Sequence record: OK283619.1
Length of the DNA stretch: 64,000 bases
Strand: one strand, 5' to 3'
Origin: Escherichia phage LPEK22
Below the pieces are notes generated by a model that made no database searches, was not told the origin of the DNA, and saw only the letters and a program-made list of their open reading frames with translations. A program made the position numbers and the translations under genes. Numbering within the stretch: the first letter of the stretch is position 1; each line of letters starts with the position of its first letter. Shown one piece after another: positions 3,232 through 61,862 of this stretch.

Positions 3232-3238
3232 CTAAATA
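3232..3238 (+). promoter_or_regulatory. Late-promoter-like motif CTAAATA(cc) upstream of a tailspike gene
   Basis: T4 late promoters are TATAAATA. The variant [C/T]TAAATAcc recurs upstream of many late genes in this window. Confidence 0.45.
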
Positions 3239-3271
3239 CCCCATATTGGTCATCCTTTATGGGGTATTATC

Positions 3272-5368
3272 ATGATTTCTCAATTCAATCAACCACGCGG
3301 CTCCACTTCCATAGAAGTTAACAAACAATCTATCGCTCGAAATTTCGGTGTCAAAGAAGACGAAGTCATTTATTTCACTGTCGGTATTGATCTCAGCGGA
3401 TTTAAAGTAATTTATGATGAGTCTACCCAACGGGCTTATTCTCTTCCTTCAGGTATTGTTTCAGGAACGACTGCGATAAGTCTGAACGAACAAGCCATCC
3501 TTACTCATTCTTCTGGCTCTGTTGATCTCGGGGAATTAGCAGTAAGCCGCGAAGAATATGTGACTTTACCTGGTTCTTTTAATTTCGGCCATACTATTAA
3601 TGTGAAAAATGAACTTCTTGTTCACGATGATGAAAAATATCGATGGGATGGTGCATTACCTAAAGTTGTTCCTGCTGGTTCAACTCCAGCATCAACTGGT
3701 GGCGTTGGTTTAGGTGCTTGGGTTAGTGTTGGTGATGCTGCATTTAGGCAGGAAGCTAATAAGAAATTCAAATATTCAGTAAAGTTATCTGATTATTCTA
3801 CATTACAGGATGCAGCGACAGCAGCCGTAGATGGATTGCTTATTGATGTTGACTACACTTTTACTGCAGATGAGAATGTAGATTTTAGCGGTAAAGTTTT
3901 AATCATTGAATGCAAAGGAAAATTCATTGGCGATGGTATGTTGGTTTGGAATGGTTTGGGTGCGGGCTCAGTAATTAAGAAACCGCACATGCATACTAAA
4001 ACTACGCCGTATACTGTTTACCGATTCGATGCAAACGGTAATTGGGTTACAGACCCAACACAAGTTCTGGCATCTGTTCAGCAGCGTTTGGATGTTGGAT
4101 ATAAGCCAAATATTAACGATTTAGATATTTGGGACGACCTTCCTGATAATGTAAAAAATCAGGTTGCTGGTGCTACTTTGCGAATAATGAGCGGCGATAA
4201 TATCATCGTAGAGAACCCAGAAGCTACATTTGGTGGTTATCTATTTACTTTATGTAATAGGATTCTTGTTAAGAATCCACGCAATTTTATTGCTTTGGAA
4301 TCGGGCATTACATTTGAGAACCATCATACAACTGCATGGGGTACTGGCAACTGGGTTGTTGGGGGTGAGATAAAATATGGCTCTGGTTCCGCTGTACTGT
4401 TCATTCGCAATGATGGTGGTACAGACCATGATGGTGGAGTAAGGGATTTAATCTCATACCGTGTTGGAGAATCAGGTATTAAAACCTATCAGAACGAAAT
4501 TGGAGGTCGTTCAGCCAGGAACTACCGTTTAGTGTTCGACAATATAACTACAATCCAGTGTTACTATGATGGTATTGATGTTAATGCTGACACAGGGTCG
4601 CCAACTGAACGTGTGGATGACTACTCACTCGCAGAGTATCCATGGTTCCACCTACCTACTCAACATATCATCCGTAATATTATTACTCGTGATTGTATGG
4701 GGATTGGTGCTTGGTGGGATGGTCAGAAAAATATTATTGATAATGTTGTTACTTATGAGGCCCATAAGGAAGGCGTCTTCGATAGGGGTACTAACAATGA
4801 TATTACTAACATTACTGTAGTAGGTGCGAATAAGGATTTAACTAACCTAAATCAGCTTACCTGTGAGGGAGGTAGTAGACTTCGTGGTATTAACATCCAT
4901 GCATATACTACACAAGGTTACGCTATATACGCTCCGTCTTCAGAAGTAAGTAATGTTTCCTGTGCTGGTTCCGGTACTAAGAAATTACTATGTACCTATA
5001 TAAGCGATATTCAGGGAGGTAATATCAATGTTCAGCATAGTGCCAACCAAATGACACTTGCAATGCAACCTGCTATGGGTGGTACTACAAACCCATCTTT
5101 GCTTATGACGGCAGATTGCCAGGTTGCTACACCAGGGGGTGAGGCAAGTATTGTCAAGCTTTCGGCAATTCAGGAGGGTGTACGTGTAGGTGAGTTTCAG
5201 CTTAACCGCTTAGGCTTTAAGCATATGAGTATACCTGCTGCCCCTTTACAATTACCAGAGAGCGCTCTGGAACATAATTCATCTATAGGATTCTTCTTCG
5301 GAAGTGACGGAGCATTGAGGTTGCTTGCTAAAAAACCAGATGGAAGTTATGTAACATACACACTTTAA
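3272..5368 (+). CDS. Tailspike protein (698 aa) with N-terminal shared anchor module
   Basis: ATG start. N-terminal 150 aa (VKEDEVIYFTVG...YRWDGALPKVVPAGSTPASTGGVGLGAWVSVGDA) matches the module in the other tailspikes. Preceded by terminator and late-promoter-like motif. Confidence 0.8.
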   Translation: MISQFNQPRGSTSIEVNKQSIARNFGVKEDEVIYFTVGIDLSGFKVIYDESTQRAYSLPSGIVSGTTAISLNEQAILTHSSGSVDLGELAVSREEYVTLPGSFNFGHTINVKNELLVHDDEKYRWDGALPKVVPAGSTPASTGGVGLGAWVSVGDAAFRQEANKKFKYSVKLSDYSTLQDAATAAVDGLLIDVDYTFTADENVDFSGKVLIIECKGKFIGDGMLVWNGLGAGSVIKKPHMHTKTTPYTVYRFDANGNWVTDPTQVLASVQQRLDVGYKPNINDLDIWDDLPDNVKNQVAGATLRIMSGDNIIVENPEATFGGYLFTLCNRILVKNPRNFIALESGITFENHHTTAWGTGNWVVGGEIKYGSGSAVLFIRNDGGTDHDGGVRDLISYRVGESGIKTYQNEIGGRSARNYRLVFDNITTIQCYYDGIDVNADTGSPTERVDDYSLAEYPWFHLPTQHIIRNIITRDCMGIGAWWDGQKNIIDNVVTYEAHKEGVFDRGTNNDITNITVVGANKDLTNLNQLTCEGGSRLRGINIHAYTTQGYAIYAPSSEVSNVSCAGSGTKKLLCTYISDIQGGNINVQHSANQMTLAMQPAMGGTTNPSLLMTADCQVATPGGEASIVKLSAIQEGVRVGEFQLNRLGFKHMSIPAAPLQLPESALEHNSSIGFFFGSDGALRLLAKKPDGSYVTYTL

Positions 5369-5441: not shown

Positions 5442-5448
5442 CTAAATA
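5442..5448 (+). promoter_or_regulatory. Late-promoter-like motif CTAAATA(cc)
   Basis: Same motif, upstream of the third tailspike gene. Confidence 0.45.
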
Positions 5449-5483
5449 CCCCATATTGGCAAATCCTTATGGGGTATTTTCAA

Positions 5484-8299: not shown

Positions 8300-10612
8300 A
8301 TGAACGAGATGTTTAGTCAAGGTGGTAAGGGTTCAACTGGAATCCTAACCAACAAACAAGCAGTAGCTAGACACTTTGGGGTTAAGCAATCTGAGATTGT
8401 TTACTTTTCGGTTGGTGTAGATTTAGGGGGGTATAAAGTTATCTATGACAAGGAAACGCAAAGAGCTTATTCCTTACCTGCTGGTATTGCTTCTGGTACT
8501 ACTGCCGTCAGTCTTAATACTGCTGCTGTACTTGTACATTCAGCAGGTTCTGTAGACTTAGGTGCATTAGCTGTATCTCGTGAAGAATACGTAACCTTAC
8601 CTGGTTCGTTTGATTCTGGCTCTACGCTTAACGTTAAAAATGAATTACTCACTTATACAGATGGTAAGTATCGCTGGGATGGAGCATTACCTAAAGCTGT
8701 CCCTGCCGGTTCAACTCCTGCATCAACTGGTGGTATTGGTCTTGGCGCGTGGGTTAGTGTTGGTGATGCTTCTTTGAGAACACAACTGGCAAACGGCAAT
8801 GGCTCGTTGATTGGAATTCACCCGCAGGGAACGCTAAATAATGTATTAACTGTGCGCACACCTGAACAGTACAATGCGGTAGGCGACGGAATAGATGACG
8901 ATACTTCAAAATTAAAAGAAATGCTTTCAGACATAAACAACGTTCCTGAAACACTTCCTGATGCTGCGGCTGTAAACTCGTACATGGAGCAAGTAGCAGT
9001 AAAAATTAACCTGACCAAGTTATACCGATTCACAGAGACGCTATACATACCCCCAGGTGTTTCAATTGAAATGCCAGCACCAAACTTTTTTACTCGTGAG
9101 TGTAAGCAAGGATTGTTTTATGACCCAGTAGATAAGAATACAGCAGCAATCAGCTTAATGGTGTACCGTAAACAACCTGATGGTTCATACAAACTCAATA
9201 AAGATGTAGATTATTATCCTACTGGGTTAGATATTGATAATGGGTACGCTGTAACATGTGCCAGAAAAATTGATATTAGTAACCTTAACCTGATTACAGC
9301 ACCAGGTGTAAAGGTTGGTGTTAAATGGATAGGTGGGGCAGGTTGCACTACAAAAGGGTTATCTATTGGGGAGAATACAGGGAGCGATATTACAACAGCA
9401 AGACTGCCAAGAGTAGGATTGTTGCAGTCAGCATCATGGGGTTCTGTTCATGAAAATCTACGCATCCTGTATAAAACTCAGGGCGCAGTGTTCATTGACT
9501 CTAATGGCGGTGCTACTGTAAACAATGCTTACATTTCCCGCCTTGGTAATACCAATGGTGAGCTAGAACAAGCGGTGTATAAACCAGCAGGGTTTACTGA
9601 GGTAGGTGATGTTGCCATCACTCAGTTTGCAGGTTCAGAGGTTAAGTTTAATAGCCCAATCATCGAACAAGCATCATTCGACTTTGTTCACGCTGGCCGG
9701 GATACTGATTCCTACGGTTTATTTATGGTTGATAAACCCCACATTGAATCATCTGGTGGGAAGAAAAAACATAGTTTCTACCTGATCAATACCAGTTCAG
9801 ATGTTACGTTGTCAGGGGTAGGTCTTTCCGGACAAGACCCTGATCTAGATAGTATGTACTTCCTTAAAAACTGCCCAGAAACTGCCCGAAATGTTGTCAG
9901 AGGACAAATGCCAGTAGGTGGTTTAAAACTCGTTAGAGGTACTGGTAACTACCCTACATTGGTACTCGACTGTACAAATATGGGAAGTCAATTCCAATTT
10001 GGGGAAGTTGGTGACATTTTCTATATCAAAGATGTTGTTGGTGTAAAAGCAGACACTCTATACATAGATCCTGTAAATGGTAATAACTACAACTGGGGAT
10101 TTAACGGAACCAAACCTATAAGAGAGCTACTTAATATTTCAAAGTTATGCCAGCTATTCAAGTGCAAAAGAGTTTATCTTAACCCAGGTGAGATAGCCAT
10201 TACCTCTAACACGGAGTTGCCGATGGTTAATTTTGAAGGTACTGGTAGCTTGAAGGCAAATTCTGGTAGTAGCTTCCTTATCAAAACCGGTGGGACATTA
10301 TCATTAATTGGGCTTGCTGGTATATCTACAGATGGCGGCCATATGTTTAGAGTCTCCACCACGGAAAAAGTAAACATACATACTAACTGCCCAGTGGATT
10401 CTGGTGCGGCCTATGTTGTACTAAGTGAGATTCAGGGTAATATTGAATACAGGCAATTATTCTATTCTGTAAATTGTTCTAAGTATGTAGGTGCAACAGC
10501 TGGACAAACTATCGCTGGTGTCATGGTTAAGACAGCGTCAAGACCGACAGGAATAGATGCTGATCCAGTTGATGGTAATACTTCTCTAACCTATAAAATT
10601 ATAGGATCATAG
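8300..10612 (+). CDS. Tailspike protein (770 aa) with N-terminal shared anchor module
   Basis: ATG with RBS aaagaggt. N-terminal 150 aa about 75 percent identical to the ORF at 3272. Followed by a strong hairpin plus T-run terminator. Confidence 0.8.
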   Translation: MNEMFSQGGKGSTGILTNKQAVARHFGVKQSEIVYFSVGVDLGGYKVIYDKETQRAYSLPAGIASGTTAVSLNTAAVLVHSAGSVDLGALAVSREEYVTLPGSFDSGSTLNVKNELLTYTDGKYRWDGALPKAVPAGSTPASTGGIGLGAWVSVGDASLRTQLANGNGSLIGIHPQGTLNNVLTVRTPEQYNAVGDGIDDDTSKLKEMLSDINNVPETLPDAAAVNSYMEQVAVKINLTKLYRFTETLYIPPGVSIEMPAPNFFTRECKQGLFYDPVDKNTAAISLMVYRKQPDGSYKLNKDVDYYPTGLDIDNGYAVTCARKIDISNLNLITAPGVKVGVKWIGGAGCTTKGLSIGENTGSDITTARLPRVGLLQSASWGSVHENLRILYKTQGAVFIDSNGGATVNNAYISRLGNTNGELEQAVYKPAGFTEVGDVAITQFAGSEVKFNSPIIEQASFDFVHAGRDTDSYGLFMVDKPHIESSGGKKKHSFYLINTSSDVTLSGVGLSGQDPDLDSMYFLKNCPETARNVVRGQMPVGGLKLVRGTGNYPTLVLDCTNMGSQFQFGEVGDIFYIKDVVGVKADTLYIDPVNGNNYNWGFNGTKPIRELLNISKLCQLFKCKRVYLNPGEIAITSNTELPMVNFEGTGSLKANSGSSFLIKTGGTLSLIGLAGISTDGGHMFRVSTTEKVNIHTNCPVDSGAAYVVLSEIQGNIEYRQLFYSVNCSKYVGATAGQTIAGVMVKTASRPTGIDADPVDGNTSLTYKIIGS

Positions 10613-10666: not shown

Positions 10667-10684
10667 CTAAATATCTCTATAAAT
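10667..10684 (+). promoter_or_regulatory. Late-promoter-like motifs (ctaaata and tataaatg) upstream of the 1612-aa gene
   Basis: tactaaatatctctataaatgg. Confidence 0.4.
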
Positions 10685-17150: not shown

Positions 17151-17181
17151 TTATCAATTCCTCAAAAGAATTAATGATTGA

Positions 17182-17188
17182 CTAAATA
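17182..17188 (+). promoter_or_regulatory. Late-promoter-like motif upstream of the gp14-like gene
   Basis: gactaaatacc. Confidence 0.45.
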
Positions 17189-17211
17189 CCTTCAAAATTG
17201 AGGGTAAAGTC

Positions 17212-17853
17212 ATGGCTACTTCAAAATATTTCAACTATACAGCACATCAAGGTACTCAAAAATTAATTGATGACTTGGTGGTCGAGATGATACAATTGCG
17301 TGGGATTGACGTCAAGTATATCCCACGTTCTATTGTTGAAAAATACCCAATTTTAAACGAGGCCGAACACAAATTCGACCAAGCGTTTGACATCGAAGTG
17401 TATATGCAGGATTATCAAGGCTTCAACACACAGATGTGGGAAAAGTTCGGCGGTATCCAATTACAAGATGAAGTGACATTCACTATTGCTCGTCGTCGTT
17501 TTTCAGAAGTTATTGGTAATGGTCCAGGCCTTGAACAAATGCCTCAAGAAGGTGATTTGATATATCTGCCTATGGCTAACAAAATATTTAAAGTGAATAA
17601 CCCGAATAACGATGAAGAATTCATGCAATTTGGGAAATGGTACACATATTCCCTACCATGTACGTTGTTCCAATACGGTAACGAAGATTTCGATACAGGT
17701 GTATCTGAAATAGACGATATTGATAAACGATTGCAGGATCTGGAAGGAGACGGTGTGTACAAAGACGCCAGCCTGCAAACGGATAACCAATTTGCGGACG
17801 AAATAGAGAAAGATCTTTCGCCCAATAAAATGAAGATAGACTTCGGGGAATAA
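17212..17853 (+). CDS. Neck protein, T4 gp14-like
   Basis: LIDDLVVEMIQLRGIDVKYIPRS, LQDEVTFTIARRRF and PQEGDLIYLPMANKIFKVN align with T4 gp14 as recalled. gactaaatacc motif upstream. Confidence 0.8.
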   Translation: MATSKYFNYTAHQGTQKLIDDLVVEMIQLRGIDVKYIPRSIVEKYPILNEAEHKFDQAFDIEVYMQDYQGFNTQMWEKFGGIQLQDEVTFTIARRRFSEVIGNGPGLEQMPQEGDLIYLPMANKIFKVNNPNNDEEFMQFGKWYTYSLPCTLFQYGNEDFDTGVSEIDDIDKRLQDLEGDGVYKDASLQTDNQFADEIEKDLSPNKMKIDFGE

Positions 17854-21431: not shown

Positions 21432-21438
21432 CTAAATA
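21432..21438 (+). promoter_or_regulatory. Late-promoter-like motif upstream of the sheath gene
   Basis: cactaaatatc. Confidence 0.45.
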
Positions 21439-23434: not shown

Positions 23435-23893
23435 ATGATATACGCATACAAAATTGAAACGATAACTAATGGAAAGGTCTACATCGGTGTGACCAATCAC
23501 CCACAACGAAGATATGATCAGCATTTTGCGAATGCTTTTCATCATGGAGTCCAAAGTGAATTGTATGATGCTATGCGTAAGTATGGAACATCTGGATTTA
23601 CTTTCGTTGTAATTGCTCAGACCGATGAAGTCCATAAATGGGAATTAGAGAAGCAACTCATCGCTCAATATAATTCTTATGAGATGGGTTACAACATGAA
23701 TAAAGGCGGTAATGATGGAAGTCATATGCTGGGTAAAACTGCAGCAAAATTGACATCCACAGGTGAACACATTGGTCTTGTTTCTCTCATAGATCCCCGT
23801 TGGGAATTGTGTGAAATCGAACCTGTTTCAAGTAATGTTCATCATGGTTTCGATCTTTCTTCCATGAAGATTAAAAGATTGACGACTAATTAG
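23435..23893 (+). CDS. Free-standing GIY-YIG homing-endonuclease-like protein (152 aa)
   Basis: N-terminal IYAYKIETITNGKVYIGVTNHPQRRYDQH carries the GIY...YIG...R...H core. Inserted between the sheath and tube genes, downstream of a terminator. Confidence 0.7.
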   Translation: MIYAYKIETITNGKVYIGVTNHPQRRYDQHFANAFHHGVQSELYDAMRKYGTSGFTFVVIAQTDEVHKWELEKQLIAQYNSYEMGYNMNKGGNDGSHMLGKTAAKLTSTGEHIGLVSLIDPRWELCEIEPVSSNVHHGFDLSSMKIKRLTTN

Positions 23894-24457: not shown

Positions 24458-24524
24458 TGTCCTCGGTGCTGGGGGAATGTTATTCCCCCTCACTAATTAC
24501 AAGAAAACGTTGAGGACTTAGATC

Positions 24525-26214: not shown

Positions 26215-26221
26215 CTAAATA
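26215..26221 (+). promoter_or_regulatory. Late-promoter-like motif upstream of the prohead core genes
   Basis: aactaaatata. Confidence 0.4.
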
Positions 26222-27432: not shown

Positions 27433-27439
27433 CTAAATA
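27433..27439 (+). promoter_or_regulatory. Late-promoter-like motif upstream of the scaffold gene
   Basis: cactaaatact. Confidence 0.45.
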
Positions 27440-28307: not shown

Positions 28308-28398
28308 TTTTAGCAGCCACAGCCCTCGAAAGGGGGCTTGATTTTGAACTACTAAGTAATTTCAACTTAACTGAATATCAATGTAAGGAACGAGCATC

Positions 28399-30052: not shown

Positions 30053-30139
30053 TTGTTTATCGTAACGATTTAATACGCGAATAGTTCAATAACAATTCCT
30101 GTTGTACGATATAACTTTCTTACAACAGGAGTATCAGTC

Positions 30140-30454: not shown

Positions 30455-30515
30455 TGTTTTCAATAAATGGGTAATGAACCATCATTACCCAACTTTCACA
30501 ATAGGAATACAACTC

Positions 30516-30921: not shown

Positions 30922-30936
30922 AGAGAGAACTACATC

Positions 30937-32002: not shown

Positions 32003-32105
32003 ATTTAAAATTTATTCAATAAACGGGGTTTACTTCTTCAATAAACCCCGTATACTTCATTCCATAAGCAGCACAACACTGACTCTGAAATGAAGGAACT
32101 ACATC

Positions 32106-32570
32106 ATGACAACCGTAAAAATCTCCGTCTGGGCATTCAACAATTTCACCAAATTTGACGCGTTTGTTAAAAACGCTCTGGGCATCACCAACATAGAATC
32201 TTTCACTTCTTATGACCGCGAAGATCAGGTCAAAATGCTTCGTCCTGAAATCGACCTTGACGCAATGCTGAACGCCATCAAGAATCACGATGACAACCTG
32301 GCTGAATTCGAAAACCTCCGCACCTCTATCTTCAAAAAGAACGGTGGCATTCGTAAGCTGAGCAACAAAACCATCAAATATGTCACCGAAGGGTTCTTTG
32401 TGGTGTTCGACTTCATAGAAACCAAGCCGAACGAACTTCGTAAAGATTTAGACGGCAACGTTATCACCCTGAAAATATTTGGCGAAGCCAAAGCCGATAT
32501 GATGCGTGACGGCCTATGTGATGAGACATTCACATACGACGAATATTGCGATCAGTGCCAAGATCTGTAA
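32106..32570 (+). CDS. Hypothetical protein (154 aa)
   Basis: ATG with RBS aaggaa. Preceded by a hairpin at 32023-32051. Confidence 0.5.
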   Translation: MTTVKISVWAFNNFTKFDAFVKNALGITNIESFTSYDREDQVKMLRPEIDLDAMLNAIKNHDDNLAEFENLRTSIFKKNGGIRKLSNKTIKYVTEGFFVVFDFIETKPNELRKDLDGNVITLKIFGEAKADMMRDGLCDETFTYDEYCDQCQDL

Positions 32571-33590: not shown

Positions 33591-33618
33591 TATAAATACC
33601 CCCAAAATTGGGGGTATT
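33591..33618 (+). promoter_or_regulatory. TATAAATA late-promoter-like box fused to a 9-bp-stem hairpin immediately upstream of the ATG at 33621
   Basis: tataaataccccc aaaatt gggggtattt. Arms aataccccc / gggggtatt. Confidence 0.45.
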
Positions 33619-33620
33619 TT

Positions 33621-34349
33621 ATGAACGCACAAATCTACGATGTCCTTTCCTCTGGTAATGCATTTAGCAACCCGCTTCCGTCCCTCTCCGGTCCCTCACA
33701 GGATTTAATCACCAGTGGTAGTACCAATATACCATTGATAACTGCCAACGCGACTCCGGAGATGCAGGCGGCTATGGTTGCTGGTGGACTAACACCAGAA
33801 AAACTCACAGCAGCCACCACCATGTATAGCGCCGCCAACACGGGGATAACGACACTGAACACATATGGCGACCAAAGTATCAATGACGCGTATTCTCGCA
33901 TCGGTACTTCCGTGTCATACAAATCAGGTCTGAAGGGTATATCACGAGAGCCAAACAATTGTGATTTGATCAACAAGGCTTTTGGTGTTGTTCAGGATTT
34001 AGGACGCCAATGGCTGAATGCTATGGAAGGTGCTCTACAGACCGTAACAAACAAGATATCGGAATTGTATGACATGATTATGGAAGGTGCCTCAGAAGGG
34101 ATGGCAAAACTACAGCAATTGGCTGCTGAAGTAACAGGACATATCAATGAGGCAATAACCGCAGTCAACGGGGTTATAAGTGATATTACAGATGGTATAG
34201 CCGCAGAACTTGCTCACATTGAAAGCATGATCAAAGAATGTCTAAACTTCTCTTTTGCGAATGTTCTTGGAGAATGGGCTAAAGATCTCTGTGCTGGAGG
34301 CGTTATTGATAAAATAGGGACTCCAGAATTAAAAGAGTCCCTGAAATAA
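33621..34349 (+). CDS. Hypothetical protein (242 aa)
   Basis: ATG immediately after the TATAAATA plus hairpin element at 33591-33618. Confidence 0.5.
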   Translation: MNAQIYDVLSSGNAFSNPLPSLSGPSQDLITSGSTNIPLITANATPEMQAAMVAGGLTPEKLTAATTMYSAANTGITTLNTYGDQSINDAYSRIGTSVSYKSGLKGISREPNNCDLINKAFGVVQDLGRQWLNAMEGALQTVTNKISELYDMIMEGASEGMAKLQQLAAEVTGHINEAITAVNGVISDITDGIAAELAHIESMIKECLNFSFANVLGEWAKDLCAGGVIDKIGTPELKESLK

Positions 34350-36025: not shown

Positions 36026-36771
36026 TGGTTTCTCTACAGGCTTTGCGCAAACTTAATGACTTTGAAAATCGTCATCATACATTTCAGCAATATTCCTTGC
36101 CGTTTAAGGAACTGACTTGCGTAACTACCGAAAATGGTCGTCACTATGTTTCCCCCACTGGAGTCAAACTAACTTCAGTGACGACCATGTTAGGGCGTAC
36201 TGGTGACCACACATGGTTAGAAGCCTGGCGGGACAAGTTGGGGCATGAAGCTGCTGATATAGAAACACATCGTTGCGCAGACCGTGGGGAAAAACTTCAT
36301 TTGGCTTGTGAGTTGTATCTCAAAAACAGACCAATGAAGGAAGTTCTGGAAGCTGCAGGGGAATACGTGTTTATGTTCAAACAGGTTTTCCCCTACCTTA
36401 ACAAAATGAGCAAGATATATGCACAAGAGATTCCATTATATAGCGAAGTCCTGGGTCTTGCTGGTCGTGTTGACCTCATCGGGGTTTACGAAGGAATTCC
36501 AAGCATAATCGATTTCAAAACATCTAACACCCTAAAAACTCGAAGCATGATAGAAGATTATAGTATTCAATTGTGTCTATACTCAGTCATGTTTCAACAA
36601 ATGTTTAATGTCAAGATAGAGCGTTTAATCAATATTATATCCAACGAAAATGCCCTTGTTCCCACCATAATCGAATTCGATCGCAAAGACGTTATTTCTA
36701 AAATGTTTGACCGTGTCCGTCTGTATCACAAAATGAACAAAGAACAGAACGGAATCTGGGCGGATCGCTAA
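36025..36771 (+). CDS. PD-(D/E)XK family nuclease (RecB/Cas4-like exonuclease fold), tentative
   Basis: GRVDLIGVYEGIPSIIDFKTS fits the D...(D/E)xK catalytic core. ATG at 36025 overlaps the upstream stop. Confidence 0.55.
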   Translation: MVSLQALRKLNDFENRHHTFQQYSLPFKELTCVTTENGRHYVSPTGVKLTSVTTMLGRTGDHTWLEAWRDKLGHEAADIETHRCADRGEKLHLACELYLKNRPMKEVLEAAGEYVFMFKQVFPYLNKMSKIYAQEIPLYSEVLGLAGRVDLIGVYEGIPSIIDFKTSNTLKTRSMIEDYSIQLCLYSVMFQQMFNVKIERLINIISNENALVPTIIEFDRKDVISKMFDRVRLYHKMNKEQNGIWADR

Positions 36772-36774
36772 ATA
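36768..36774 (+). promoter_or_regulatory. Late-promoter-like motif upstream of uvsW
   Basis: gctaaatactc, about 27 nt before the uvsW ATG. Confidence 0.4.
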
Positions 36775-36800
36775 CTCCATAATATTGGGGGAAATTAGTG

Positions 36801-38300
36801 ATGTCTGAGATCCAAATAGTCAAAGTGAACGAAGTTAGAATGCGGATCCTTACCGAGGATTATATCCGTGAAGAACTCAACGATTACTTCAAATTTGAAG
36901 ATCCTAATTTCCAACCGAATCCGTTCAGTAAATGGGACGGCGTAGTGCGGCTGTTCACAAAGAGTTCTGGGCTTATCGACATCGGCCTGTTATTTGAGGT
37001 GTTCAAATTCTGTAAGATGAACGGTTACACCATCAAATTAGATCCGACCTTAAAATATATTCAAGATATTCCGGATGAAGAAATTCATGCGTTCATCGAT
37101 ACATTGAATGCGGTGTACCGAGACGAAAACAAACAATATCAAAAAGCGATTGTCCGCGATTATCAATTTGATTCTGTTGCCACAGCAATACGCCAAAGCA
37201 GATGTGTCCTCGAAGCTGCCACGAGTGCTGGCAAATCCTTTATTTTGTACATCATGGCGCGTTACTACAGGCAACGCAGAGATGCCCTCGAAAGTAATCT
37301 GAGGACGTTAATTGTTGTACCATCCATTCATTTGGTGACTCAGTTGTATGACAACTTCGAAGAATATAGCCACGGGACAGAATGGAAGCCATTGATGAAC
37401 GTCCAGACAATATACGAAGGGGCAACGAAAGAGATTTTCAAACCCATAGTTATTTCAACTTGGCAAGGTATCCAGAACCAACCCAAAGAGTGGTTCCATC
37501 AATTTGGAGATATCGTCGTCGACGAAGTACATACATCAAAATCAGATAAATTGTCTTACATCTTGAACAACTGTATTAACGCTGATCAACGTTTGGGAGT
37601 AACCGGAACCCTGGCGAATACAAAGGTCGCAGGGTTACAAGTCGTTGCTCACTTTGGCGCATATCATAAAATTATTACAGCGCGCGATTTAATCGATCTA
37701 GGATATGCGGTAGACATCAATGTTAATATGATTGAAGTCATACATCCTATGGCAGACTGTATTGAAATGCACGGTGCTGAGTATCAAAAGGAAATAGAAT
37801 TCCTCATTGCTAACGAACGCCGCAATGAATTGATAGCCCGAATGGCTCTATCTTTGAAAGGGAACGTCGCAGTCATGTTCGAACGTATCGATGCACACAT
37901 GATGTTGGTTTATGAAATGCTATCGGCAGTCAAGAAAAACGTATTCGTCATCAACGGGGAAGTCAAGACAGAAGTTCGTAAACAGATTCAGGCTGCTATG
38001 GAAGAAGGGGAAGATATAACACTGTTGGCATCATATGGTACTATGCAACAGGGCGTATCTATCAAAAAACTCCATCATCTGATATTGGCCCATCCCAGCA
38101 AATCTTATATCCGTGTTATACAGACATTGGGGCGTTTGATGCGCCAGCATTCCTCTAAGGATGTTGCGCGAATCTGGGACCTGGTAGACAACCTGCGTTA
38201 CAACGGTTCCTACAACCATGCTCTCAGGCATTCTCATGAGAGATATAAATTTTATCTTATGGAGCGCCACCCTGTTAAAATGAAAAAAGTGGCGCTCTAA
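36801..38300 (+). CDS. uvsW: UvsW-like DNA helicase
   Basis: KWDGVVRL, ATSAGKSF (Walker A), STWQGIQNQPKEWFHQFG, DEVH, ASYGTMQQGVSIKKLHHLILAH, QTLGRLMR and WDLVD align along the length with T4 UvsW as recalled. ATG at 36801 (track start is GTG). Confidence 0.9.
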   Translation: MSEIQIVKVNEVRMRILTEDYIREELNDYFKFEDPNFQPNPFSKWDGVVRLFTKSSGLIDIGLLFEVFKFCKMNGYTIKLDPTLKYIQDIPDEEIHAFIDTLNAVYRDENKQYQKAIVRDYQFDSVATAIRQSRCVLEAATSAGKSFILYIMARYYRQRRDALESNLRTLIVVPSIHLVTQLYDNFEEYSHGTEWKPLMNVQTIYEGATKEIFKPIVISTWQGIQNQPKEWFHQFGDIVVDEVHTSKSDKLSYILNNCINADQRLGVTGTLANTKVAGLQVVAHFGAYHKIITARDLIDLGYAVDINVNMIEVIHPMADCIEMHGAEYQKEIEFLIANERRNELIARMALSLKGNVAVMFERIDAHMMLVYEMLSAVKKNVFVINGEVKTEVRKQIQAAMEEGEDITLLASYGTMQQGVSIKKLHHLILAHPSKSYIRVIQTLGRLMRQHSSKDVARIWDLVDNLRYNGSYNHALRHSHERYKFYLMERHPVKMKKVAL

Positions 38301-38671: not shown

Positions 38672-39010
38672 ATATTATTTCTCACGTGTTAGCAAACTTG
38701 ACTACATAATAATGTCATGTTCTGTTTAGACCAAATAAAATATTTTAATTGTTGAATAAAAATCGCTTTCTTGTTGAACAATCCGTGCGTAATATACGAG
38801 TTGTGAGCTTTGCGAGCAACGAGTATTATCACGAGCGAAGCGAGTAGACTGATAAAGAAAGGTTTTATTAAAACAGAATATTATAAATGCCGTCAGGCAT
38901 TTATTTATCGCGCGTAGGGCAATTTATCACTTGTTCTATAACTACAAACACGCGATACTAATTTGCGTCAAATATGACTTGAACCCCACTATATTTTGAG
39001 GATACAACTA
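38672..39010. promoter_or_regulatory. Long AT-rich divergent intergenic region (about 340 bp) with short direct repeats
   Basis: Largest non-coding gap in the window. Lies between the divergent minus ORF at 38306-38671 and the clamp gene. Contains TTGTTGAA twice and a cluster of ACGAG/GCGAG repeats at 38796-38844. Confidence 0.4.
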
Positions 39011-39679
39011 ATGCAAGAGATCACTCTCTCCGAACGCACTTTACAACTGCTGGCTAACTTTGAAACCATCTGCCCCTCTATCGTTCTGGCACCTGGTAAA
39101 AAGTTGCGCACTGTTAACGATTCCAGTACAGTTATCGCTATTGCCGACATTGACGAAGACTTCCCGTTCGAATTCCCGATTCTGGATCTGACCAAATTGC
39201 TGGCAATCCAGCGTCTGCCGAGTTTTAAAGGCGGTAAAATTGAAATGTCGGAAGACCACATTTTGCTGAAAGGTGAAAACTCCCAACTGCAATTCTGGCG
39301 TTCCGCTAAAGAACTGACTGTCGTTCCGGCAGACAGCATCGATCTCCCGTCTGTAGAATTTGAAGCAACAGTCACTCCTGAAAAAATGAAAGAGCTGACC
39401 CGCGCATGTTCTACTCTGGGCCACAAAACTGTACGCCTGGTTGCCAGCGGCGGTAAAACTCGTCTGGTGGGCACGACCACTACTATCGACAATTCCAACG
39501 ATTACACTGTTGAGTTGGGTGAAACAACTCTGGGTGATTTTGCTATGCCTGTTGATGTGGTCAACCTGAAAATGATCGAAGGCAACTACGTGATCCGCGC
39601 CTGTGCCGAAATGCAACTGGTTAACTTCCAATCCGCAGACGGCACCATCAACTATTACGTCGGCATGCAGCTGGATTAA
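39011..39679 (+). CDS. Sliding clamp, T4 gp45-like
   Basis: LQLLANFETICPSIVLAPG parallels T4 gp45 (LLKNFATINSGIMLKSG). ATG at 39011 with RBS gagga (track start is TTG). Lies upstream of the clamp loader. Confidence 0.8.
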   Translation: MQEITLSERTLQLLANFETICPSIVLAPGKKLRTVNDSSTVIAIADIDEDFPFEFPILDLTKLLAIQRLPSFKGGKIEMSEDHILLKGENSQLQFWRSAKELTVVPADSIDLPSVEFEATVTPEKMKELTRACSTLGHKTVRLVASGGKTRLVGTTTTIDNSNDYTVELGETTLGDFAMPVDVVNLKMIEGNYVIRACAEMQLVNFQSADGTINYYVGMQLD

Positions 39680-39757: not shown

Positions 39758-40747
39758 ATGTCTAACATCACTATCGTCACAGATCAATACGCGTGGGAAA
39801 ACAAATATCGTCCTGACAATCTGGATGAGATCGTCCTCCCTTCAGACGTCCGTGCAAAAATCCATGGCTATGTTACATCAGGCAATGGAAACATCCCCTC
39901 AATGCTGTTCTATTCCCCTCAGCCTGGTACGGGCAAGACTACTTCTGCTCTGGCTGTGTGTAACGAAATCGGTTGTATCAAACCGTTGATGATCAATGCG
40001 TCACTGGATAACAGCATTGATGTCATCCGTGACCGTGTTATTCAATACGCAACTGGCGTCAGTGTTTTCGGTGGCCGCAAAGTCGTTATCCTCGATGAAG
40101 TTGAGCGACTTTCCATGGCGGCGCAGGAATCCCTGAAAGGCATCGTAGAGAAAGTCTCAAAAAACTGCTCCTTCATCCTGACGACTAATGCGAAACAGCG
40201 CGTTAACGAACCTCTGCGTTCCCGCTGTCGTGAAATTGATTTTATCTGGTCTGAAAAGGAAGCAGATGAAGTTAAACTTCAATTCATGCGTCGTTGCGCA
40301 ACTATCCTGACAGAGGAAGGCATTCCGTATGAAGCTGGTGTAATTGCTTCCATTGTGAAATCATATTTCCCAGATAATCGCAAAATTATGGGAACTCTTC
40401 AGGATAATGCCACCACGTTTGGTAAAATCGATGAACGCGCTCTGGCACAGGTTAAAGCAGGGGAATTCCAAGCGTTGGTGGATTTCCTAAAAACCAATGA
40501 TTGGGCTGGGATGAAGCAGTGGGTGACCGACAACCAAAACTACATCACTGAAGATTTTTATTCCCGTTTCTTCCATTTCTGCGTTCCCCAGAACAAGGAA
40601 AAGACTCCTTTGATTCAAAACGAGTCAATCCCTGATCTGGTATGCGTATGTGGTCAGTCTCAGATTGAACATCGTTCCGTCGGCGACGTCTGGTTACACG
40701 GCGTTTACTTCTTGACTAACGTCATGCTCAACATCAAATGGAAGTAA
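39758..40747 (+). CDS. Clamp loader large subunit (AAA+), T4 gp44-like
   Basis: Walker A PQPGTGKTT, Walker B ILDEVERL, RFC-box-like SRC. Confidence 0.9.
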   Translation: MSNITIVTDQYAWENKYRPDNLDEIVLPSDVRAKIHGYVTSGNGNIPSMLFYSPQPGTGKTTSALAVCNEIGCIKPLMINASLDNSIDVIRDRVIQYATGVSVFGGRKVVILDEVERLSMAAQESLKGIVEKVSKNCSFILTTNAKQRVNEPLRSRCREIDFIWSEKEADEVKLQFMRRCATILTEEGIPYEAGVIASIVKSYFPDNRKIMGTLQDNATTFGKIDERALAQVKAGEFQALVDFLKTNDWAGMKQWVTDNQNYITEDFYSRFFHFCVPQNKEKTPLIQNESIPDLVCVCGQSQIEHRSVGDVWLHGVYFLTNVMLNIKWK

Positions 40748-40751
40748 TATT

Positions 40752-41174
40752 ATGGCCGCTCCGTCACTGTTCGATTACCTCGGTGCGTTGAATAGCACCA
40801 AAGAGAATCTGTTGATGACCGAAGACCCCGAAATCAGAAAGGCTTTTGATCCTTTCATGACTCGGCGCGGCCTTGCTCAGAGTAAAGACACGCTTGTGGT
40901 TGCCGAACAAATGAACCGCTTCCATGCCATTACTCCTTGGATGCAATGGAACCTGGCGTTTCATAGCATTCCGGCAAAACGTCGCTATGACAAGTGGTCT
41001 AAGAAGGGAGCTATGGATCCTGATGTGAAATTGATTTCTGAGTATTATTACATCAGTCCTGAAAAGGCTTCAGAATATGTTCGATTCCTGCCGAAAGAAG
41101 TCCTGGCTGAAATCAAGGCGAAGGTCGAACGTTCCAACAGCAACGAAAAAGCCAAACCGCGCAAGGCTAAGTAA
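40752..41174 (+). CDS. Clamp loader small subunit, T4 gp62-like
   Basis: IPAKRRYDKWSK parallels T4 gp62 (VPRGKRYGKWAK). Position immediately after the gp44-like gene. Confidence 0.7.
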   Translation: MAAPSLFDYLGALNSTKENLLMTEDPEIRKAFDPFMTRRGLAQSKDTLVVAEQMNRFHAITPWMQWNLAFHSIPAKRRYDKWSKKGAMDPDVKLISEYYYISPEKASEYVRFLPKEVLAEIKAKVERSNSNEKAKPRKAK

Positions 41175-41203: not shown

Positions 41204-41668
41204 ATGGCGCGTAATACGCTGGACATCTTAAAACTTTCAGCTGTCAACGATGAGGCCAGCATTGTTGACTGTATGGTTGAAGTTCAATTGAACCAAGACA
41301 AACCAGGGATTTTCCTGGGTATCAAGGAAACGCTGAGTCGGATAGGGGTTAACACTCGTCAAGAGCCTAACACCTTGTATCAAACGTGCCATATTCTGCA
41401 TAAATTTGGCAGATATCACATCGTGCATTTCAAGCATCTTTTCATGCTAGATGGGCACTACAACGGCTTTACGCGTGAAGATGTCCTGCGTATGAATCGG
41501 ATTATACGGCTTCTGGAGCAATGGAATATGGTTAAGATCTTGCATCCGGAACAAATAACCGAAGTGGCTGACATGTCTCGGATCAAAGTTGTAAAACATG
41601 ACCAAGTTTCTGAGTGGAAACTGGTTCCAAAATACACCATTCGCCCAAGTCGGGCAAAAAGCGAATAA
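41204..41668 (+). CDS. regA: RegA-like translational repressor
   Basis: LYQTCHILHKFGRYHIVHFKHLFMLDG and EWKLVPKYTI match T4 RegA (LYQSCHILQKKGLYYIVHFKEM, EWKLVPKYTI) as recalled. Confidence 0.85.
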   Translation: MARNTLDILKLSAVNDEASIVDCMVEVQLNQDKPGIFLGIKETLSRIGVNTRQEPNTLYQTCHILHKFGRYHIVHFKHLFMLDGHYNGFTREDVLRMNRIIRLLEQWNMVKILHPEQITEVADMSRIKVVKHDQVSEWKLVPKYTIRPSRAKSE

Positions 41669-44227: not shown

Positions 44228-44323
44228 ACTTTTCAATAAATCTTTTCAGCGTATATTGACCTCACTTTAACGACGCGCCCCGATAAGGGCGCTCACTTTG
44301 AACTGAAACAGGAAGACTATACC

Positions 44324-51964: not shown

Positions 51965-52023
51965 TTCTATAAATTATGGCGGGGTATGATTACCCCGCCG
52001 ATTTGAAATGCAGGAACTATACC

Positions 52024-52479: not shown

Positions 52480-52491
52480 AGAGACTATATC

Positions 52492-52770: not shown

Positions 52771-52807
52771 ACTAACTAAGGGATAATCCTATATCCCGAG
52801 GTGTGTC

Positions 52808-61070: not shown

Positions 61071-61862
61071 ATGGGTATGAATTTTGTAGACAGGGGTGAT
61101 AACGTCACCAAATATTTCACAGACGAAGATAATGACCGTGTTGTTGGAATATTGAGAGATTGGATTCCGGCTCGCAAAAAGGCTTTGGCCGAAGGAACAC
61201 CCCTACCAAGAATCCCCAATTATGTGGCCATGAATGTTCAGATGATTATTAAGAACATGAGTATGCGCTACAACTATCGTGATTATCCATACCGCGAAGA
61301 CATGGTCAGTGAGGCCGTTGTCAACATCCTTCGTTACCTCCATACATTTGACGTCAGTCATATCGGCAAGAAAGGAAAAATCAATTTCTTCTCTTGGGTA
61401 ACGATGTGCGCCGATCGTTCATTCGCCAAGAAACTCACCAGTGAAGAAGAACACAATTATATCAAGTTGCGTTCATTTGAAGAAGCAGGTGGTTTCGCTG
61501 CATTATCAGATGACCCAGACTTCCAGCAACAGACATTCGTAGACAGCACTGGTATAACAATGGACTTCCGTGAGCGTATCGGAAATTTTGAAACTAAGAA
61601 AGAAGCACAGCGCGAAAAGGAACGCCAAAAGCAAATCGCCATCAAAGAAGAGGAAAAGAATAAGAAAATTCCTCGCGGTATACTTCAATGTCTCACAAAG
61701 AGTGAAAATACCATTACCGCCGACGCCGAAGATAATTCAGACTATGACTTCGGCTCTACTCAATTCAATCTGGAAGACGAAATATGTTCTATGGAACCAG
61801 ATTGGGAAGAAGCAAAGAAACGAGCATTAGAACGGGAGCAACAAAATAATGGCGATTGCTAA
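61071..61862 (+). CDS. Late-transcription sigma factor, T4 gp55-like, with C-terminal extension
   Basis: QMIIKNMSMRYNYRDYPYREDMVSEAVVNILRYLHTFD and INFFSWVTMCADRSFAKKLTSEEE parallel T4 gp55 as recalled. 263 aa against about 185 aa in T4; extra Lys/Glu-rich C-terminal region. Confidence 0.75.
   Translation: MGMNFVDRGDNVTKYFTDEDNDRVVGILRDWIPARKKALAEGTPLPRIPNYVAMNVQMIIKNMSMRYNYRDYPYREDMVSEAVVNILRYLHTFDVSHIGKKGKINFFSWVTMCADRSFAKKLTSEEEHNYIKLRSFEEAGGFAALSDDPDFQQQTFVDSTGITMDFRERIGNFETKKEAQREKERQKQIAIKEEEKNKKIPRGILQCLTKSENTITADAEDNSDYDFGSTQFNLEDEICSMEPDWEEAKKRALEREQQNNGDC

What the first reader, a model, noticed from the sequence alone, without database searches (positions are those of the whole stretch)
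36768..36774. Late-promoter motif family and a shared start-codon context
[C/T]TAAATAcc-type motifs sit 25-45 nt upstream of the ATGs of tailspike, neck, sheath, prohead, scaffold and uvsW genes; the uvsW case fits T4, where uvsW is a late gene. Variants CTAATTA (before tube and portal) and CTAAGTA (before the capsid gene) also occur. Separately, several non-structural genes share a gaACTAcAtcATG start context (30937, 32106, 44324, 52024), hinting at a second regulatory class.
Basis: partly seen in the sequence, partly recalled or inferred. Interest (0 to 1): 0.35.

Follow-up and report, generated by a model that had tools for sequence, protein, structure and literature searches.

The report
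T4-type late promoters in a Kuttervirus
The short sequence CTAAATA in front of the virion genes of this Salmonella phage is its version of the phage T4 late promoter; it is real and strongly non-random, but it is an already described feature of this phage family.

Summary
The window is a ViI-like Salmonella phage (Kuttervirus, Ackermannviridae), 99% identical to sequenced isolates.

**Late promoter motif: confirmed.**
- Eight of ten CTAAATA copies lie 20-42 nt upstream of same-strand start codons. About 0.4 are expected, and 0 of 5000 shuffles reach 8.
- It is the top 7-mer in an unbiased k-mer scan of the upstream regions.
- It is kept before the orthologous genes in seven genera, although the flanking sequence diverges.
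- The variant sites are canonical CTAAATA at the same positions in more distant genera.
- The phage encodes homologues of T4 gp55 and gp45. A 99%-identical relative also encodes gp33.
- The consensus is (c)aCTAAATA with no -35 element. It matches T4 TATAAATA except for C at -12, as already reported for Aeromonas phage Aeh1.
- A late promoter for this family is cited as known since 2012, so this part is correct but not new.

**Start-codon context: also real.** ACTAYAYC abuts ATG five times in the window. It is too close to the ATG, and downstream of the ribosome-binding site, to be a promoter. It is the 3' edge of repeated early-gene leader cassettes, one of which borders a swapped gene.

**Other signals found.**
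- A second promoter-like motif, TTCAATAA.
- Hairpins that place the late promoter in one arm and the ribosome-binding site in the other, as in T4 genes e, soc and 49.

The parts
3232..3238 (+). CTAAATA late promoter element before the tailspike gene (ATG 3272)
   Evidence: same leader in Limestonevirus and Nezavisimistyvirus
5442..5448 (+). CTAAATA late promoter element before the second tailspike gene (annotated ATG 5469; 5484 is the likelier start)
10667..10673 (+). CTAAATA before VrlC (ATG 10706)
   Evidence: kept in 6 of 7 genera at 21-34 nt from the ATG
17182..17188 (+). CTAAATA before neck protein gp14 (ATG 17212)
21432..21438 (+). CTAAATA before tail sheath (ATG 21481)
   Evidence: kept in all 7 genera
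23886..23892 (+). CTAATTA variant (A to T at -8) before tail tube (ATG 23924)
   Evidence: canonical CTAAATA at the same place in phiMAM1 and phiEa2809
24493..24499 (+). CTAATTA variant before portal (ATG 24525)
   Evidence: canonical in phiMAM1, phiEa2809 and VAP7
26215..26221 (+). CTAAATA before the small ORF at 26249 that heads the prohead core/protease genes
27433..27439 (+). CTAAATA before prohead scaffold gp22 (ATG 27468)
   Evidence: kept in all 7 genera
28352..28358 (+). CTAAGTA variant (A to G at -8) before the major capsid gene (ATG 28399)
   Evidence: aligned with canonical CTAAATA in phiMAM1 and phiEa2809
33591..33598 (+). TATAAATA (exact T4 consensus; A at -12) before a putative structural protein (ATG 33621)
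36768..36774 (+). CTAAATA before uvsW (ATG 36801); its TAA is also the stop codon of the exonuclease gene
   Evidence: kept in all 7 genera
52772..52778 (+). CTAACTA (-8 variant) before a putative structural protein (ATG 52808); tentative
61071..61862 (+). gp55 homologue, the late sigma factor presumed to read the motif
   Evidence: PHROG 234 E 1.6e-53; family profile hits T4 gp55 chain 7d7c_F, E 2.2e-7; pocket residues compared
39011..39679 (+). gp45 sliding clamp homologue (activator of late transcription in T4)
   Evidence: PHROG 223 E 1.5e-65
39758..41174 (+). clamp loader gp44/gp62 homologues
   Evidence: annotation transferred from phage moki
3235..3268 (+). hairpin: 5' arm AAUACCCCAUA overlaps the promoter, 3' arm UAUGGGGUAUU covers the ribosome-binding site
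   Evidence: -19.6 kcal/mol, z -3.7, 0 of 200 shuffles fold as well
5444..5479 (+). same type of hairpin before the second tailspike gene
   Evidence: -16.8 kcal/mol, z -3.8
17179..17212 (+). promoter/ribosome-binding-site hairpin before gp14
   Evidence: -14.1 kcal/mol, z -4.9; a different sequence forms the same architecture in Vibrio phage VAP7
33590..33624 (+). promoter/ribosome-binding-site hairpin before the structural gene at 33621
   Evidence: -17.8 kcal/mol, z -3.7; 12-pair consensus in 6 genera, 3 pairs with compensatory changes
36765..36801 (+). promoter/ribosome-binding-site hairpin before uvsW
   Evidence: -13.1 kcal/mol, z -4.0
30929..30936 (+). ACTACATC start context, abuts ATG 30937
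32098..32105 (+). ACTACATC start context, abuts ATG 32106; left junction of a swapped ORF
44316..44323 (+). ACTATACC start context, abuts ATG 44324
52016..52023 (+). ACTATACC start context, abuts ATG 52024 (denV)
52484..52491 (+).
32015..32056 (+). stem-loop plus sigma-70-like early promoter (TTTACT, 16 nt, TATACT) carrying two TTCAATAA copies, 50-90 nt upstream of ATG 32106
30085..30092 (+). TTCAATAA, second intergenic motif; further copies at 30459, 44232, 51671 and 55185
   Evidence: 7 intergenic + strand copies against 0.23 expected
41204..41668 (+). RegA translational repressor homologue, a candidate reader of the start context (speculative)
   Evidence: PHROG 242 E 3.2e-53

Best explanation
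CTAAATA, in full (c)aCTAAATA(c/t), is the -10-like element of the late promoters of this ViI-like phage. By analogy with T4, host RNA polymerase core carrying the phage sigma factor (the gp55 homologue, 61071-61862) recognises this single element. In T4 it lies at about -12 to -6 from the transcription start, no -35 element is involved, and initiation is boosted by the sliding clamp (gp45, 39011-39679) through gp33, which ties late transcription to DNA replication.

The element drives the virion genes (tailspikes, VrlC, neck, sheath, tube, portal, prohead and capsid) and uvsW. Position -12 is C in most sites and A in some. Position -8 tolerates T, G or C in a few sites.

At a subset of sites the promoter is built into the 5' arm of a hairpin whose 3' arm holds the ribosome-binding site. 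These sites are the two tailspike genes, gp14, the structural gene at 33621 and uvsW. A transcript that reads through from upstream would fold and hide the ribosome-binding site. A transcript started at the late promoter would lack the 5' arm and be translatable.

The ACTAYAYC-ATG context is a different thing. It is the last part of the 5' leader of early-type genes that are preceded by sigma-70-like promoters marked by TTCAATAA. These leaders are repeated cassettes.

**Shown here:** motif enrichment, position, strand bias, cross-genus conservation, presence of the protein homologues, hairpin stability and some covariation, and the gene swap at a cassette edge.

**Inferred:** recognition by gp55, the transcription start positions, late timing, and the translational gating.
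For: **Enrichment and position**
- 8 copies in promoter zones against 0.4 expected; 0 of 5000 shuffles reach 8.
- Top k-mer in the unbiased upstream scan.
- 9 copies on the + strand against 1 on the - strand in the window. In the structural loci of six other genera the totals are 67 + strand and 6 - strand.
- In the complete 99% relative, 17 of 22 copies lie 20-45 nt upstream of a same-strand start. Fourteen of the 17 genes are annotated as virion or morphogenesis genes. The other three are uvsW, a RuvC-like resolvase (the functional analogue of T4 late gene 49) and a hypothetical gene. Only 5 copies lie elsewhere, where about 17 are expected in total.

**Conservation**
- A logo of 60 orthologous sites shows an invariant T, A, T, A core, C at -12 in 57 of 60, nothing conserved upstream, and an A-rich stretch where T4 spacing predicts the start.
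- The variants become canonical in distant genera.
- The single-mismatch variants most enriched in promoter zones are the three -8 changes and ATAAATA.

**Trans-acting proteins**
- gp55 homologue. T4 pocket residues N13, R57, F86 and T99 are kept (against PMC7892883).
- gp45.
- gp33 in the relative: Pfam PF16805, E 4.6e-19.

**Literature**
- T4 consensus TATAAATA at -13 to -6, and the CTAAATA variant in Aeh1 (PMC1524935, PMC2988020).
- T4 uvsW has a late promoter (PMC3016281).

**Hairpins**
- z from -3.7 to -4.9, with 0 of 200 shuffles folding as well. The two predicted late transcripts that were folded (3244-3277 and 33604-33626) are unstructured.
- Compensatory pairs across genera.
- The T4 precedent is genes e, soc, 49 and I-TevI (PMC3014915).
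Against: - No transcript 5' ends or expression timing are available for this phage or, in the library searched, for any member of the family. Promoter activity, start sites and late timing are therefore inferred.
- gp55 is distant from T4 gp55: the link is seen only at profile level, and a single-sequence search of the PDB found nothing.
- Two T4 pocket residues differ (H95 to F, Y97 to W). The Y-to-W change does not explain C at -12, because Aeh1 has the same promoter variant and keeps Tyr.
- Several late-type genes lack a recognisable element: the third tailspike gene at 8300, gp3 at 35034 and the spanins.
- The capsid gene, the most heavily expressed, carries a variant rather than the consensus.
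- Hairpins are present at only a subset of sites and are not conserved in all genera (gp14). They could act as terminators instead.
Confidence: 0.88

Rival explanations
1. The CTAAATA copies are a compositional by-product of A+T-rich intergenic DNA, stop codons (TAA) or the A-tracts of terminators, and have no promoter function.
For: - One copy (36768) contains the stop codon of the upstream gene.
- Several copies sit next to G+C-rich stems.
- The loose pattern YTAAATA is not enriched over the whole window.
Against: - Dinucleotide shuffles of the same upstream zones give 0.4 copies against 8 observed.
- Among the 105 permutations of the same seven letters, only CTAAATA and its one-base shifts stand out.
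- The strand bias is strong.
- The motif is kept at orthologous sites while flanks diverge, even in a Vibrio phage.
- Most sites have no hairpin.
Confidence: 0.03
2. The conserved element works mainly as RNA or DNA structure. It would be the A-rich 5' arm of an intrinsic terminator or of a hairpin that hides the ribosome-binding site, and the promoter resemblance would be secondary.
For: - Five window sites form stable hairpins that start inside the motif.
- AAATACCCC...GGGGTATTTT has the A-tract, stem and U-tract look of a terminator.
Against: - VrlC, sheath, the ORF at 26249, gp22, tube, portal and capsid carry the motif without such a hairpin.
- The invariant bases are those of the T4 element, not those needed for pairing.
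- The gp14 hairpin is absent in three genera that keep the motif.
- The two roles are compatible rather than exclusive, as in T4 genes e, soc and 49.
Confidence: 0.05
3. For the start context: ACTAYAYC-AUG, with TTGAA a few bases upstream, is the operator of a phage translational repressor. The RegA homologue at 41204-41668 is the candidate. The motif would then define a post-transcriptional regulon of early genes.
For: - The motif abuts or overlaps the AUG, is A+U-rich and is not predicted to be structured. Those are the general features of T4 RegA sites (PMC3014915).
- A RegA homologue is encoded.
- 10 copies in the complete relative against 0.5 expected, all at or next to start codons of non-structural genes.
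- The similarity extends into the second codon (ATG AC).
Against: - It bears no resemblance to the T4 RegA consensus AAAAUUGUUAUGUAA.
- The replication genes that RegA represses in T4 (44, 45, 62, regA) do not carry the motif here.
- For some copies the similarity extends 50-110 nt upstream, and one copy borders a swapped ORF. That fits duplication or recombination of a cassette and needs no binding protein.
Confidence: 0.2

Closest known systems
Bacteriophage T4 late promoters (TATAAATA at -13 to -6, read by gp55 with gp33 and the gp45 sliding clamp)
   Same: - A single 7-8 bp A+T-rich element with no -35 element, and the same TAAATA core.
- It sits in front of virion genes and uvsW.
- gp55, gp33 and gp45 homologues are present.
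- An A-rich start region lies at the T4 spacing.
- Some sites carry the exact T4 octamer (33591-33598).
   Different: - C rather than A at -12 in most sites.
- gp55 is 263 aa against 185 in T4, with an insertion next to the -12 pocket residue and Trp in place of Tyr97.
- No experimental start sites are available.
Aeromonas phage Aeh1 late promoters (CTAAATA beginning at -12; Nolan et al. 2006, PMC1524935)
   Same: The heptamer is identical, and it was found in the same way, upstream of orthologues of T4 late genes.
   Different: - A different phage family (Straboviridae).
- Aeh1 gp55 keeps the T4-type Tyr97 and lacks the insertion. The shared C at -12 is therefore not explained by the one pocket residue compared.
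Late gene promoter reported for the ViI-like phages (Adriaenssens et al. 2012, Arch Virol 157:2035)
   Same: The same phage family. [quoted passage not shown] From memory, not checked, the published consensus is CTAAATAcCcc.
   Different: The paper is not in the library, so I could not compare site lists. An earlier paper on CBA120 (PMC3184105) stated that the late promoter of the family was still unidentified.
T4 genes e, soc, 49 and I-TevI: a hairpin that hides the ribosome-binding site, with a late promoter in its 5' arm
   Same: - The late promoter overlaps the 5' arm and the ribosome-binding site lies in the 3' arm.
- The predicted late start lies inside the hairpin.
- In the relative genome the endolysin and the resolvase genes, analogues of e and 49, have the same layout.
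   Different: Here the layout is also found on tailspike, neck and uvsW genes. It has not been tested, and a terminator role is not excluded.
PeSL cassettes (promoter-early stem-loop) of T4-like phages (PMC2839356, PMC4122927)
   Same: - Short repeated stem-loop plus early-promoter sequences lie between small variable genes.
- One cassette (32009-32110) borders an ORF that differs between two 99%-identical phages.
- That cassette has 73-75% copies elsewhere in the genome.
   Different: - The sequence is unrelated to the described PeSLs.
- Here the repeat runs on through the leader to the start codon (ACTAYAYC-ATG).
- Recombination at these sites is inferred from a single swap.

Membership tests
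T4-type (gp55-dependent) late promoter | Single A+T-rich TATAAATA-like element with no conserved -35 element | tested here: met
   Logo of 60 orthologous sites: aCTAAATA, with information near zero from 3 to 15 nt upstream of the motif. 6 of 8 positions match T4.
T4-type (gp55-dependent) late promoter | Element centred about one helical turn upstream of a mapped transcription start | not testable with these tools
   No 5'-end data. The only indication is an A-rich stretch at the position that T4 spacing predicts as +1.
T4-type (gp55-dependent) late promoter | Phage encodes a gp55-type sigma factor | tested here: met
   Window 61071-61862: PHROG 234 E 1.6e-53. The family profile hits T4 gp55 chain 7d7c_F at E 2.2e-7.
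T4-type (gp55-dependent) late promoter | Phage encodes the sliding clamp gp45 and the co-activator gp33 | tested here: met
   gp45 at 39011-39679. gp33 (Pfam PF16805, E 4.6e-19) is in the 99%-identical genome of phage moki, outside this window.
T4-type (gp55-dependent) late promoter | Precedes late (virion and lysis) genes, on the same strand | tested here: met
   8 of 8 zone sites in the window and 17 of 22 copies in the full relative genome.
T4-type (gp55-dependent) late promoter | Activity late in infection, dependent on gp55 and on DNA replication | not testable with these tools
   Needs time-resolved RNA data or mutants.
Aeh1-type CTAAATA variant | C at -12 in place of A | tested here: met
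   C in 57 of 60 orthologous sites. PMC1524935 describes the Aeh1 motif.
Late promoter embedded in a hairpin that hides the ribosome-binding site (T4 e/soc/49/I-TevI type) | Stable hairpin pairing the ribosome-binding site and/or AUG | tested here: met
   Five window sites: -13 to -20 kcal/mol, z -3.7 to -4.9.
Late promoter embedded in a hairpin that hides the ribosome-binding site (T4 e/soc/49/I-TevI type) | The late start lies inside the hairpin, so late RNA lacks the 5' arm | tested here: inconclusive
   True only if T4 spacing holds. Two predicted late RNAs were folded and are unstructured. No mapped starts.
Late promoter embedded in a hairpin that hides the ribosome-binding site (T4 e/soc/49/I-TevI type) | Structure conserved, with compensatory changes | tested here: inconclusive
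   Leader of the structural gene at 33621: 12 pairs in 6 genera, 3 with changes on both sides. The gp14 hairpin is not conserved in all genera.
RegA operator | A+U-rich unstructured site at or overlapping the AUG of early mRNAs, with RegA encoded | tested here: inconclusive
   Position and composition fit, and a RegA homologue is present. The motif does not resemble the T4 consensus and is absent from genes 44, 45, 62 and regA.
PeSL-like regulatory cassette | Repeated stem-loop plus sigma-70-like early promoter flanking variable ORFs, at indel or swap junctions | tested here: met
   - Stem-loop plus TTTACT, 16 nt, TATACT at 32015-32056.
- Paralogous copies, and an exact ORF replacement between 32114 and 32569.
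- Only one junction was examined.

The most novel reading that the evidence does not exclude
Two features beyond the known late promoter may be unreported for this family.

1. A family-wide translational gate. Ten or more late genes, including tailspikes, neck, uvsW, endolysin and resolvase, would place the late promoter inside a hairpin that hides the ribosome-binding site. This is far more widespread than the four classic T4 cases.
2. A conserved ACTAYAYC-AUG element that may be the operator of a phage RNA-binding regulator such as RegA.

If both hold, the phage would set the timing of many genes at the level of translation as well as transcription.
Probability: 0.25. Interest if true: 0.45.

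Novelty: already known. Interest (0 to 1): 0.25.

Why it matters
The result gives a clean, statistically supported map of the late transcription units in the structural half of a Kuttervirus genome. This group is used for phage therapy, biocontrol and reporter-phage diagnostics.

- Knowing the exact element, its tolerated variants (-12 and -8) and the hairpins that may restrict translation to late transcripts helps when inserting reporter or payload genes, and when correcting start codons such as 5469 against 5484.
- The repeated early leaders that end in ACTAYAYC-ATG mark places where genes are exchanged between close relatives. That is useful for understanding and engineering the variable part of these genomes.

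None of this changes the current picture of T4-type late transcription.

Tried and rejected
- **Pocket residue and C at -12.** I asked whether C at -12 is explained by the Tyr97-to-Trp change in the gp55 pocket that holds the -12 base in T4. It is not: Aeh1 has the same CTAAATA promoters and keeps Tyr.
- **Direct link to T4 gp55.** A single-sequence search of the PDB with the gp55 homologue found nothing relevant, and Pfam has no model for it. The link to T4 gp55 needed PHROGs and a family profile.
- **T at the first position.** TTAAATA is not supported in this window (0 of 10 copies in promoter zones). It does occur before the endolysin and the DNA end-protector genes of the relative.
- **Start context as a promoter.** I tried reading ACTAYAYC, with TTGAA upstream, as -10 and -35 elements. 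The spacing is about 8 nt and the ribosome-binding site lies upstream of it, so this was rejected.
- **TTCAATAA as a fixed -35 element.** Its distance to TATAAT-like hexamers varies between 6 and 19 nt. Only some copies fit TTTACT, 16-17 nt, TATAMT. The generic sigma-70 scan is only weakly above shuffles (14 against 8.2, sd 3.0).
- **Doubtful sites.** ATAAATA at 15541 has a terminator-like hairpin between it and the gene. CTAAGTA at 41167, before regA, overlaps the end of the gp62 gene. I did not count either as a promoter.
- **Literature.** The 2012 Viunalikevirus paper could not be read by DOI or PMC id. No transcriptome of an Ackermannviridae phage was found.
Full report
**What the window is.** A 6-kb piece is 99.7% identical to Salmonella phage SeHz-1 and 99.3% identical to phage moki. 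Its relatives are ViI-like phages of Salmonella, Escherichia, Klebsiella, Dickeya and Serratia. The annotated record of moki (Kuttervirus, Ackermannviridae) was used to transfer gene calls. The window carries:
- the tailspike cluster, VrlC, neck, terminase, sheath, tube, portal, prohead and capsid genes;
- a block of small non-structural genes;
- gp3, uvsY, an exonuclease, uvsW, gp45, gp44/62 and regA;
- further small genes, the spanins, RNase H, the gp55-like late sigma factor and gp47/46.

Nearly all genes are on the + strand. Only 3.2 kb, about 5%, is intergenic.

**The observation.** CTAAATA is at 36768-36774 as stated. The window has ten exact copies, nine on the + strand. Eight of them end 20-42 nt upstream of a + strand start codon: two tailspike genes, VrlC, gp14, sheath, the small ORF that heads the prohead core/protease genes, scaffold gp22 and uvsW.

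**Is it more than chance?**
- The loose pattern YTAAATA is not enriched over the whole window (20 copies against 18.8 in shuffles), so the test has to be about position.
- In the 3108 nt where a 7-mer would end 15-50 nt upstream of a start, CTAAATA occurs 8 times. Dinucleotide shuffles of the same stretches give 0.4, with a maximum of 4 in 5000.
- Among all 105 orderings of the same seven letters, only CTAAATA and its one-base shifts stand out.
- An unbiased k-mer scan of 74 upstream regions ranks CTAAATA first among 7-mers. It ranks ACTAAATA first among 8-mers, with 7 of 7 copies upstream of genes.

**The whole genome.** I assembled the complete genome of the 99% relative from five fetched pieces and repeated the census. 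Of 22 copies, 17 lie 20-45 nt upstream of an annotated same-strand start.
- The additional genes include a baseplate wedge subunit, the first tailspike, the tail-tube cap and four proteins annotated as structural.
- They also include a RuvC-like resolvase, the functional analogue of T4 late gene 49.
- Only 5 copies lie anywhere else, while a first-order Markov model expects about 17 in total. The word is therefore avoided inside genes, as expected if stray copies are harmful.
- Other late genes of the relative (hub, gp5, tube initiator) carry ATAAATA. Two of them have the exact T4 octamer TATAAATA.
- The endolysin and the DNA end-protector genes carry TTAAATA.

**Conservation.** I fetched the structural region of six other genera: Agtrevirus, Taipeivirus, Limestonevirus, Miltonvirus, Nezavisimistyvirus and the Vibrio phage VAP7. 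The VAP7 sheath protein is only 51% identical.
- The motif is kept before VrlC, gp14, sheath, gp22 and uvsW in all or nearly all of them, although the surrounding intergenic sequence is unalignable in the distant ones.
- The variant sites of the window are canonical CTAAATA at the same place in phiMAM1, phiEa2809 and VAP7. This is the best evidence that the variants are true sites.
- A logo of 60 orthologous sites shows c-a-C-T-A-A-A-T-A-(c/t). Nothing is conserved further upstream, and an A-rich stretch lies 5-8 nt downstream of the motif.
- Strand bias in these loci is 67 to 6.
- In the window, the single-mismatch variants most enriched in promoter zones are the three changes at one position (CTAAGTA, CTAATTA, CTAACTA), followed by ATAAATA. 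TTAAATA is 0 of 10.

**Mechanism.** In T4 the late promoter is TATAAATA at -13 to -6 with no -35 element. It is read by gp55, with gp33 and the sliding clamp gp45 as activators (PMC1524935, PMC2988020, PMC7892883).
- With that numbering, the element here has C at -12 and the variable position is -8.
- The window encodes a gp55 homologue (PHROG 234, E 1.6e-53). A profile of 14 family members hits T4 gp55 in the cryo-EM structure 7d7c at E 2.2e-7.
- The window also encodes gp45 and the clamp loader. gp33 is present in the relative (Pfam PF16805).
- Of the seven T4 residues whose mutation impairs open-complex formation, N13, R57, F86 and T99 are identical in the family. H95 is Phe and Y97, which stacks on the -12 base, is Trp.
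- The Tyr-to-Trp change does not explain the C, because Aeh1 keeps Tyr and was reported to use CTAAATA (PMC1524935).
- Recognition by gp55, the start sites and late timing remain inferences.

**What is known.**
- The CBA120 paper of 2011 stated that the late promoter of the ViI family had not been identified (PMC3184105).
- The AG3 and LIMEstone papers listed 17 and 33 putative late promoters by similarity to T4 (PMC3121705, PMC3296691).
[quoted passage not shown] I could not read that 2012 paper. From memory, unverified, it gives CTAAATAcCcc.
- The same heptamer was described for Aeh1 in 2006.
- T4 UvsW is expressed from a late promoter (PMC3016281), so the uvsW site fits.

The main finding is therefore correct and already known.

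**Hairpins.** At five window sites the motif is the start of a stable hairpin whose other arm holds the ribosome-binding site. These sites are the two tailspike genes, gp14, the structural gene at 33621 and uvsW.
- Energies are -13 to -20 kcal/mol, z is -3.7 to -4.9, and none of 200 shuffles folds as well.
- RNAs that begin at the start predicted from T4 spacing lack the 5' arm. The two that were folded are unstructured.
- This explains the 'cc' after the motif: it is the complement of the GGGG or GAGG ribosome-binding site.
- The leader of the gene at 33621 keeps a 12-pair hairpin in six genera, with three compensatory pairs.
- The gp14 hairpin is present in three close genera and, with a different sequence, in VAP7. 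It is absent in three others.
- In the relative, the endolysin and resolvase genes have the same layout. T4 genes e and 49 are the textbook cases of a late promoter inside a hairpin that hides the ribosome-binding site (PMC3014915).
- A role as a terminator for upstream transcripts is not excluded. The stem is flanked by an A-tract and a U-rich tail.

**The start-codon context.** ACTAYAYC directly abuts the ATG at 30937, 32106, 44324 and 52024. It also does so at 52492, and at 32639 with one mismatch.
- In the complete relative there are 10 copies against 0.5 expected, all on the + strand before non-structural genes.
- It lies between the ribosome-binding site and the ATG, so it cannot be a promoter.
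- For the copy at 32106 the identity extends about 100 nt upstream, through a stem-loop and a sigma-70-like promoter (TTTACT, 16 nt, TATACT at 32029-32056).
- This leader is almost unchanged in four genera while the ORF behind it differs.
- Between the window and moki, 96.6% identity runs to 8 nt past the ATG, stops, and resumes at the stop codon. The 154-aa ORF in between has no homologue in moki.
- The leader also has 73-75% copies at two other places in the genome.
- This is the behaviour described for the promoter-early stem-loop cassettes of T4-like phages (PMC2839356, PMC4122927).
- A role as a RegA operator is possible but weakly supported.

**A second intergenic motif.** TTCAATAA occurs eight times on the + strand. 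Seven copies are intergenic, against 0.23 expected, and lie 54-92 nt upstream of non-structural genes.
- Genome-wide it often appears as (G/C)TTTACT-yc-TTCAATAA followed 6-8 nt later by TATAMT. It appears in opposed pairs at the two regions where transcription diverges.
- It is present in the enterobacterial genera but not on the gene strand of the Vibrio phage locus.
- This motif, rather than the start context, is the likely promoter signature of the second class.

**Verdict.** The hairpin layout and the repeated early leaders are modest extensions of known T4 paradigms and would need experiments.

Noticed in passing
window 32106-32570: A 154-aa ORF with no homologue in the 99%-identical phage moki. 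Identity (96.6%) runs through the upstream promoter and leader to 8 nt past the ATG, stops, and resumes at the stop codon. This is an exact ORF replacement between two conserved intergenic cassettes.
   Followed up: partly
window 30085, 30459, 32015, 32037, 44232, 51671, 55185: TTCAATAA is a second strongly enriched intergenic motif: 7 copies against 0.23 expected. It lies 54-92 nt upstream of non-structural genes, often within (G/C)TTTACT..TTCAATAA..TATAMT. It is probably the early-promoter signature of the enterobacterial members of the family.
   Followed up: partly
window 5469-5486: The annotated start of the second tailspike gene (ATG 5469) lies inside the 3' arm of the leader hairpin. 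By analogy with the first tailspike leader, the in-frame ATG at 5484 is the likelier start.
   Followed up: no
L009 about 9735-9775 (phage moki record about 80235-80275): The endolysin gene of the relative is preceded by TTAAATA followed by a hairpin (AAATACCTTCGC...GCGGAGGTATTT) that covers the ribosome-binding site. This is the same layout as T4 lysozyme gene e.
   Followed up: no
window 61071-61862: The gp55 homologue is 263 aa against 185 in T4. It has a 5-residue insertion just before the residue equivalent to T4 Tyr97 (here Trp109), and an acidic tail of about 60 residues after a motif (KIPRGILQCL) that aligns with the C-terminal clamp-binding region.
   Followed up: partly
window 8025-8031 (-) and 8834-8840 (+); whole genome of the relative: CTAAATA is rare away from gene starts: 2 copies in the window, and 5 in the 158-kb relative where about 17 are expected in total. 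This suggests selection against stray late promoters inside genes.
   Followed up: partly
window 23435-23893: A GIY-YIG homing endonuclease gene sits between the sheath and tube genes. Other genera have a different endonuclease, or none, at this spot.
   Followed up: no
window 8300-10612: The third tailspike gene (770 aa) differs from moki, where the region is annotated as two shorter genes. It has no recognisable late promoter element, only a terminator-like hairpin upstream.
   Followed up: no
window 38672-39010: At 339 nt this is the longest intergenic region of the window. It lies between a - strand gene and gp45 and is well conserved in four genera. It has no late motif. It may hold divergent early or middle promoters or a replication-related site.
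   Followed up: no
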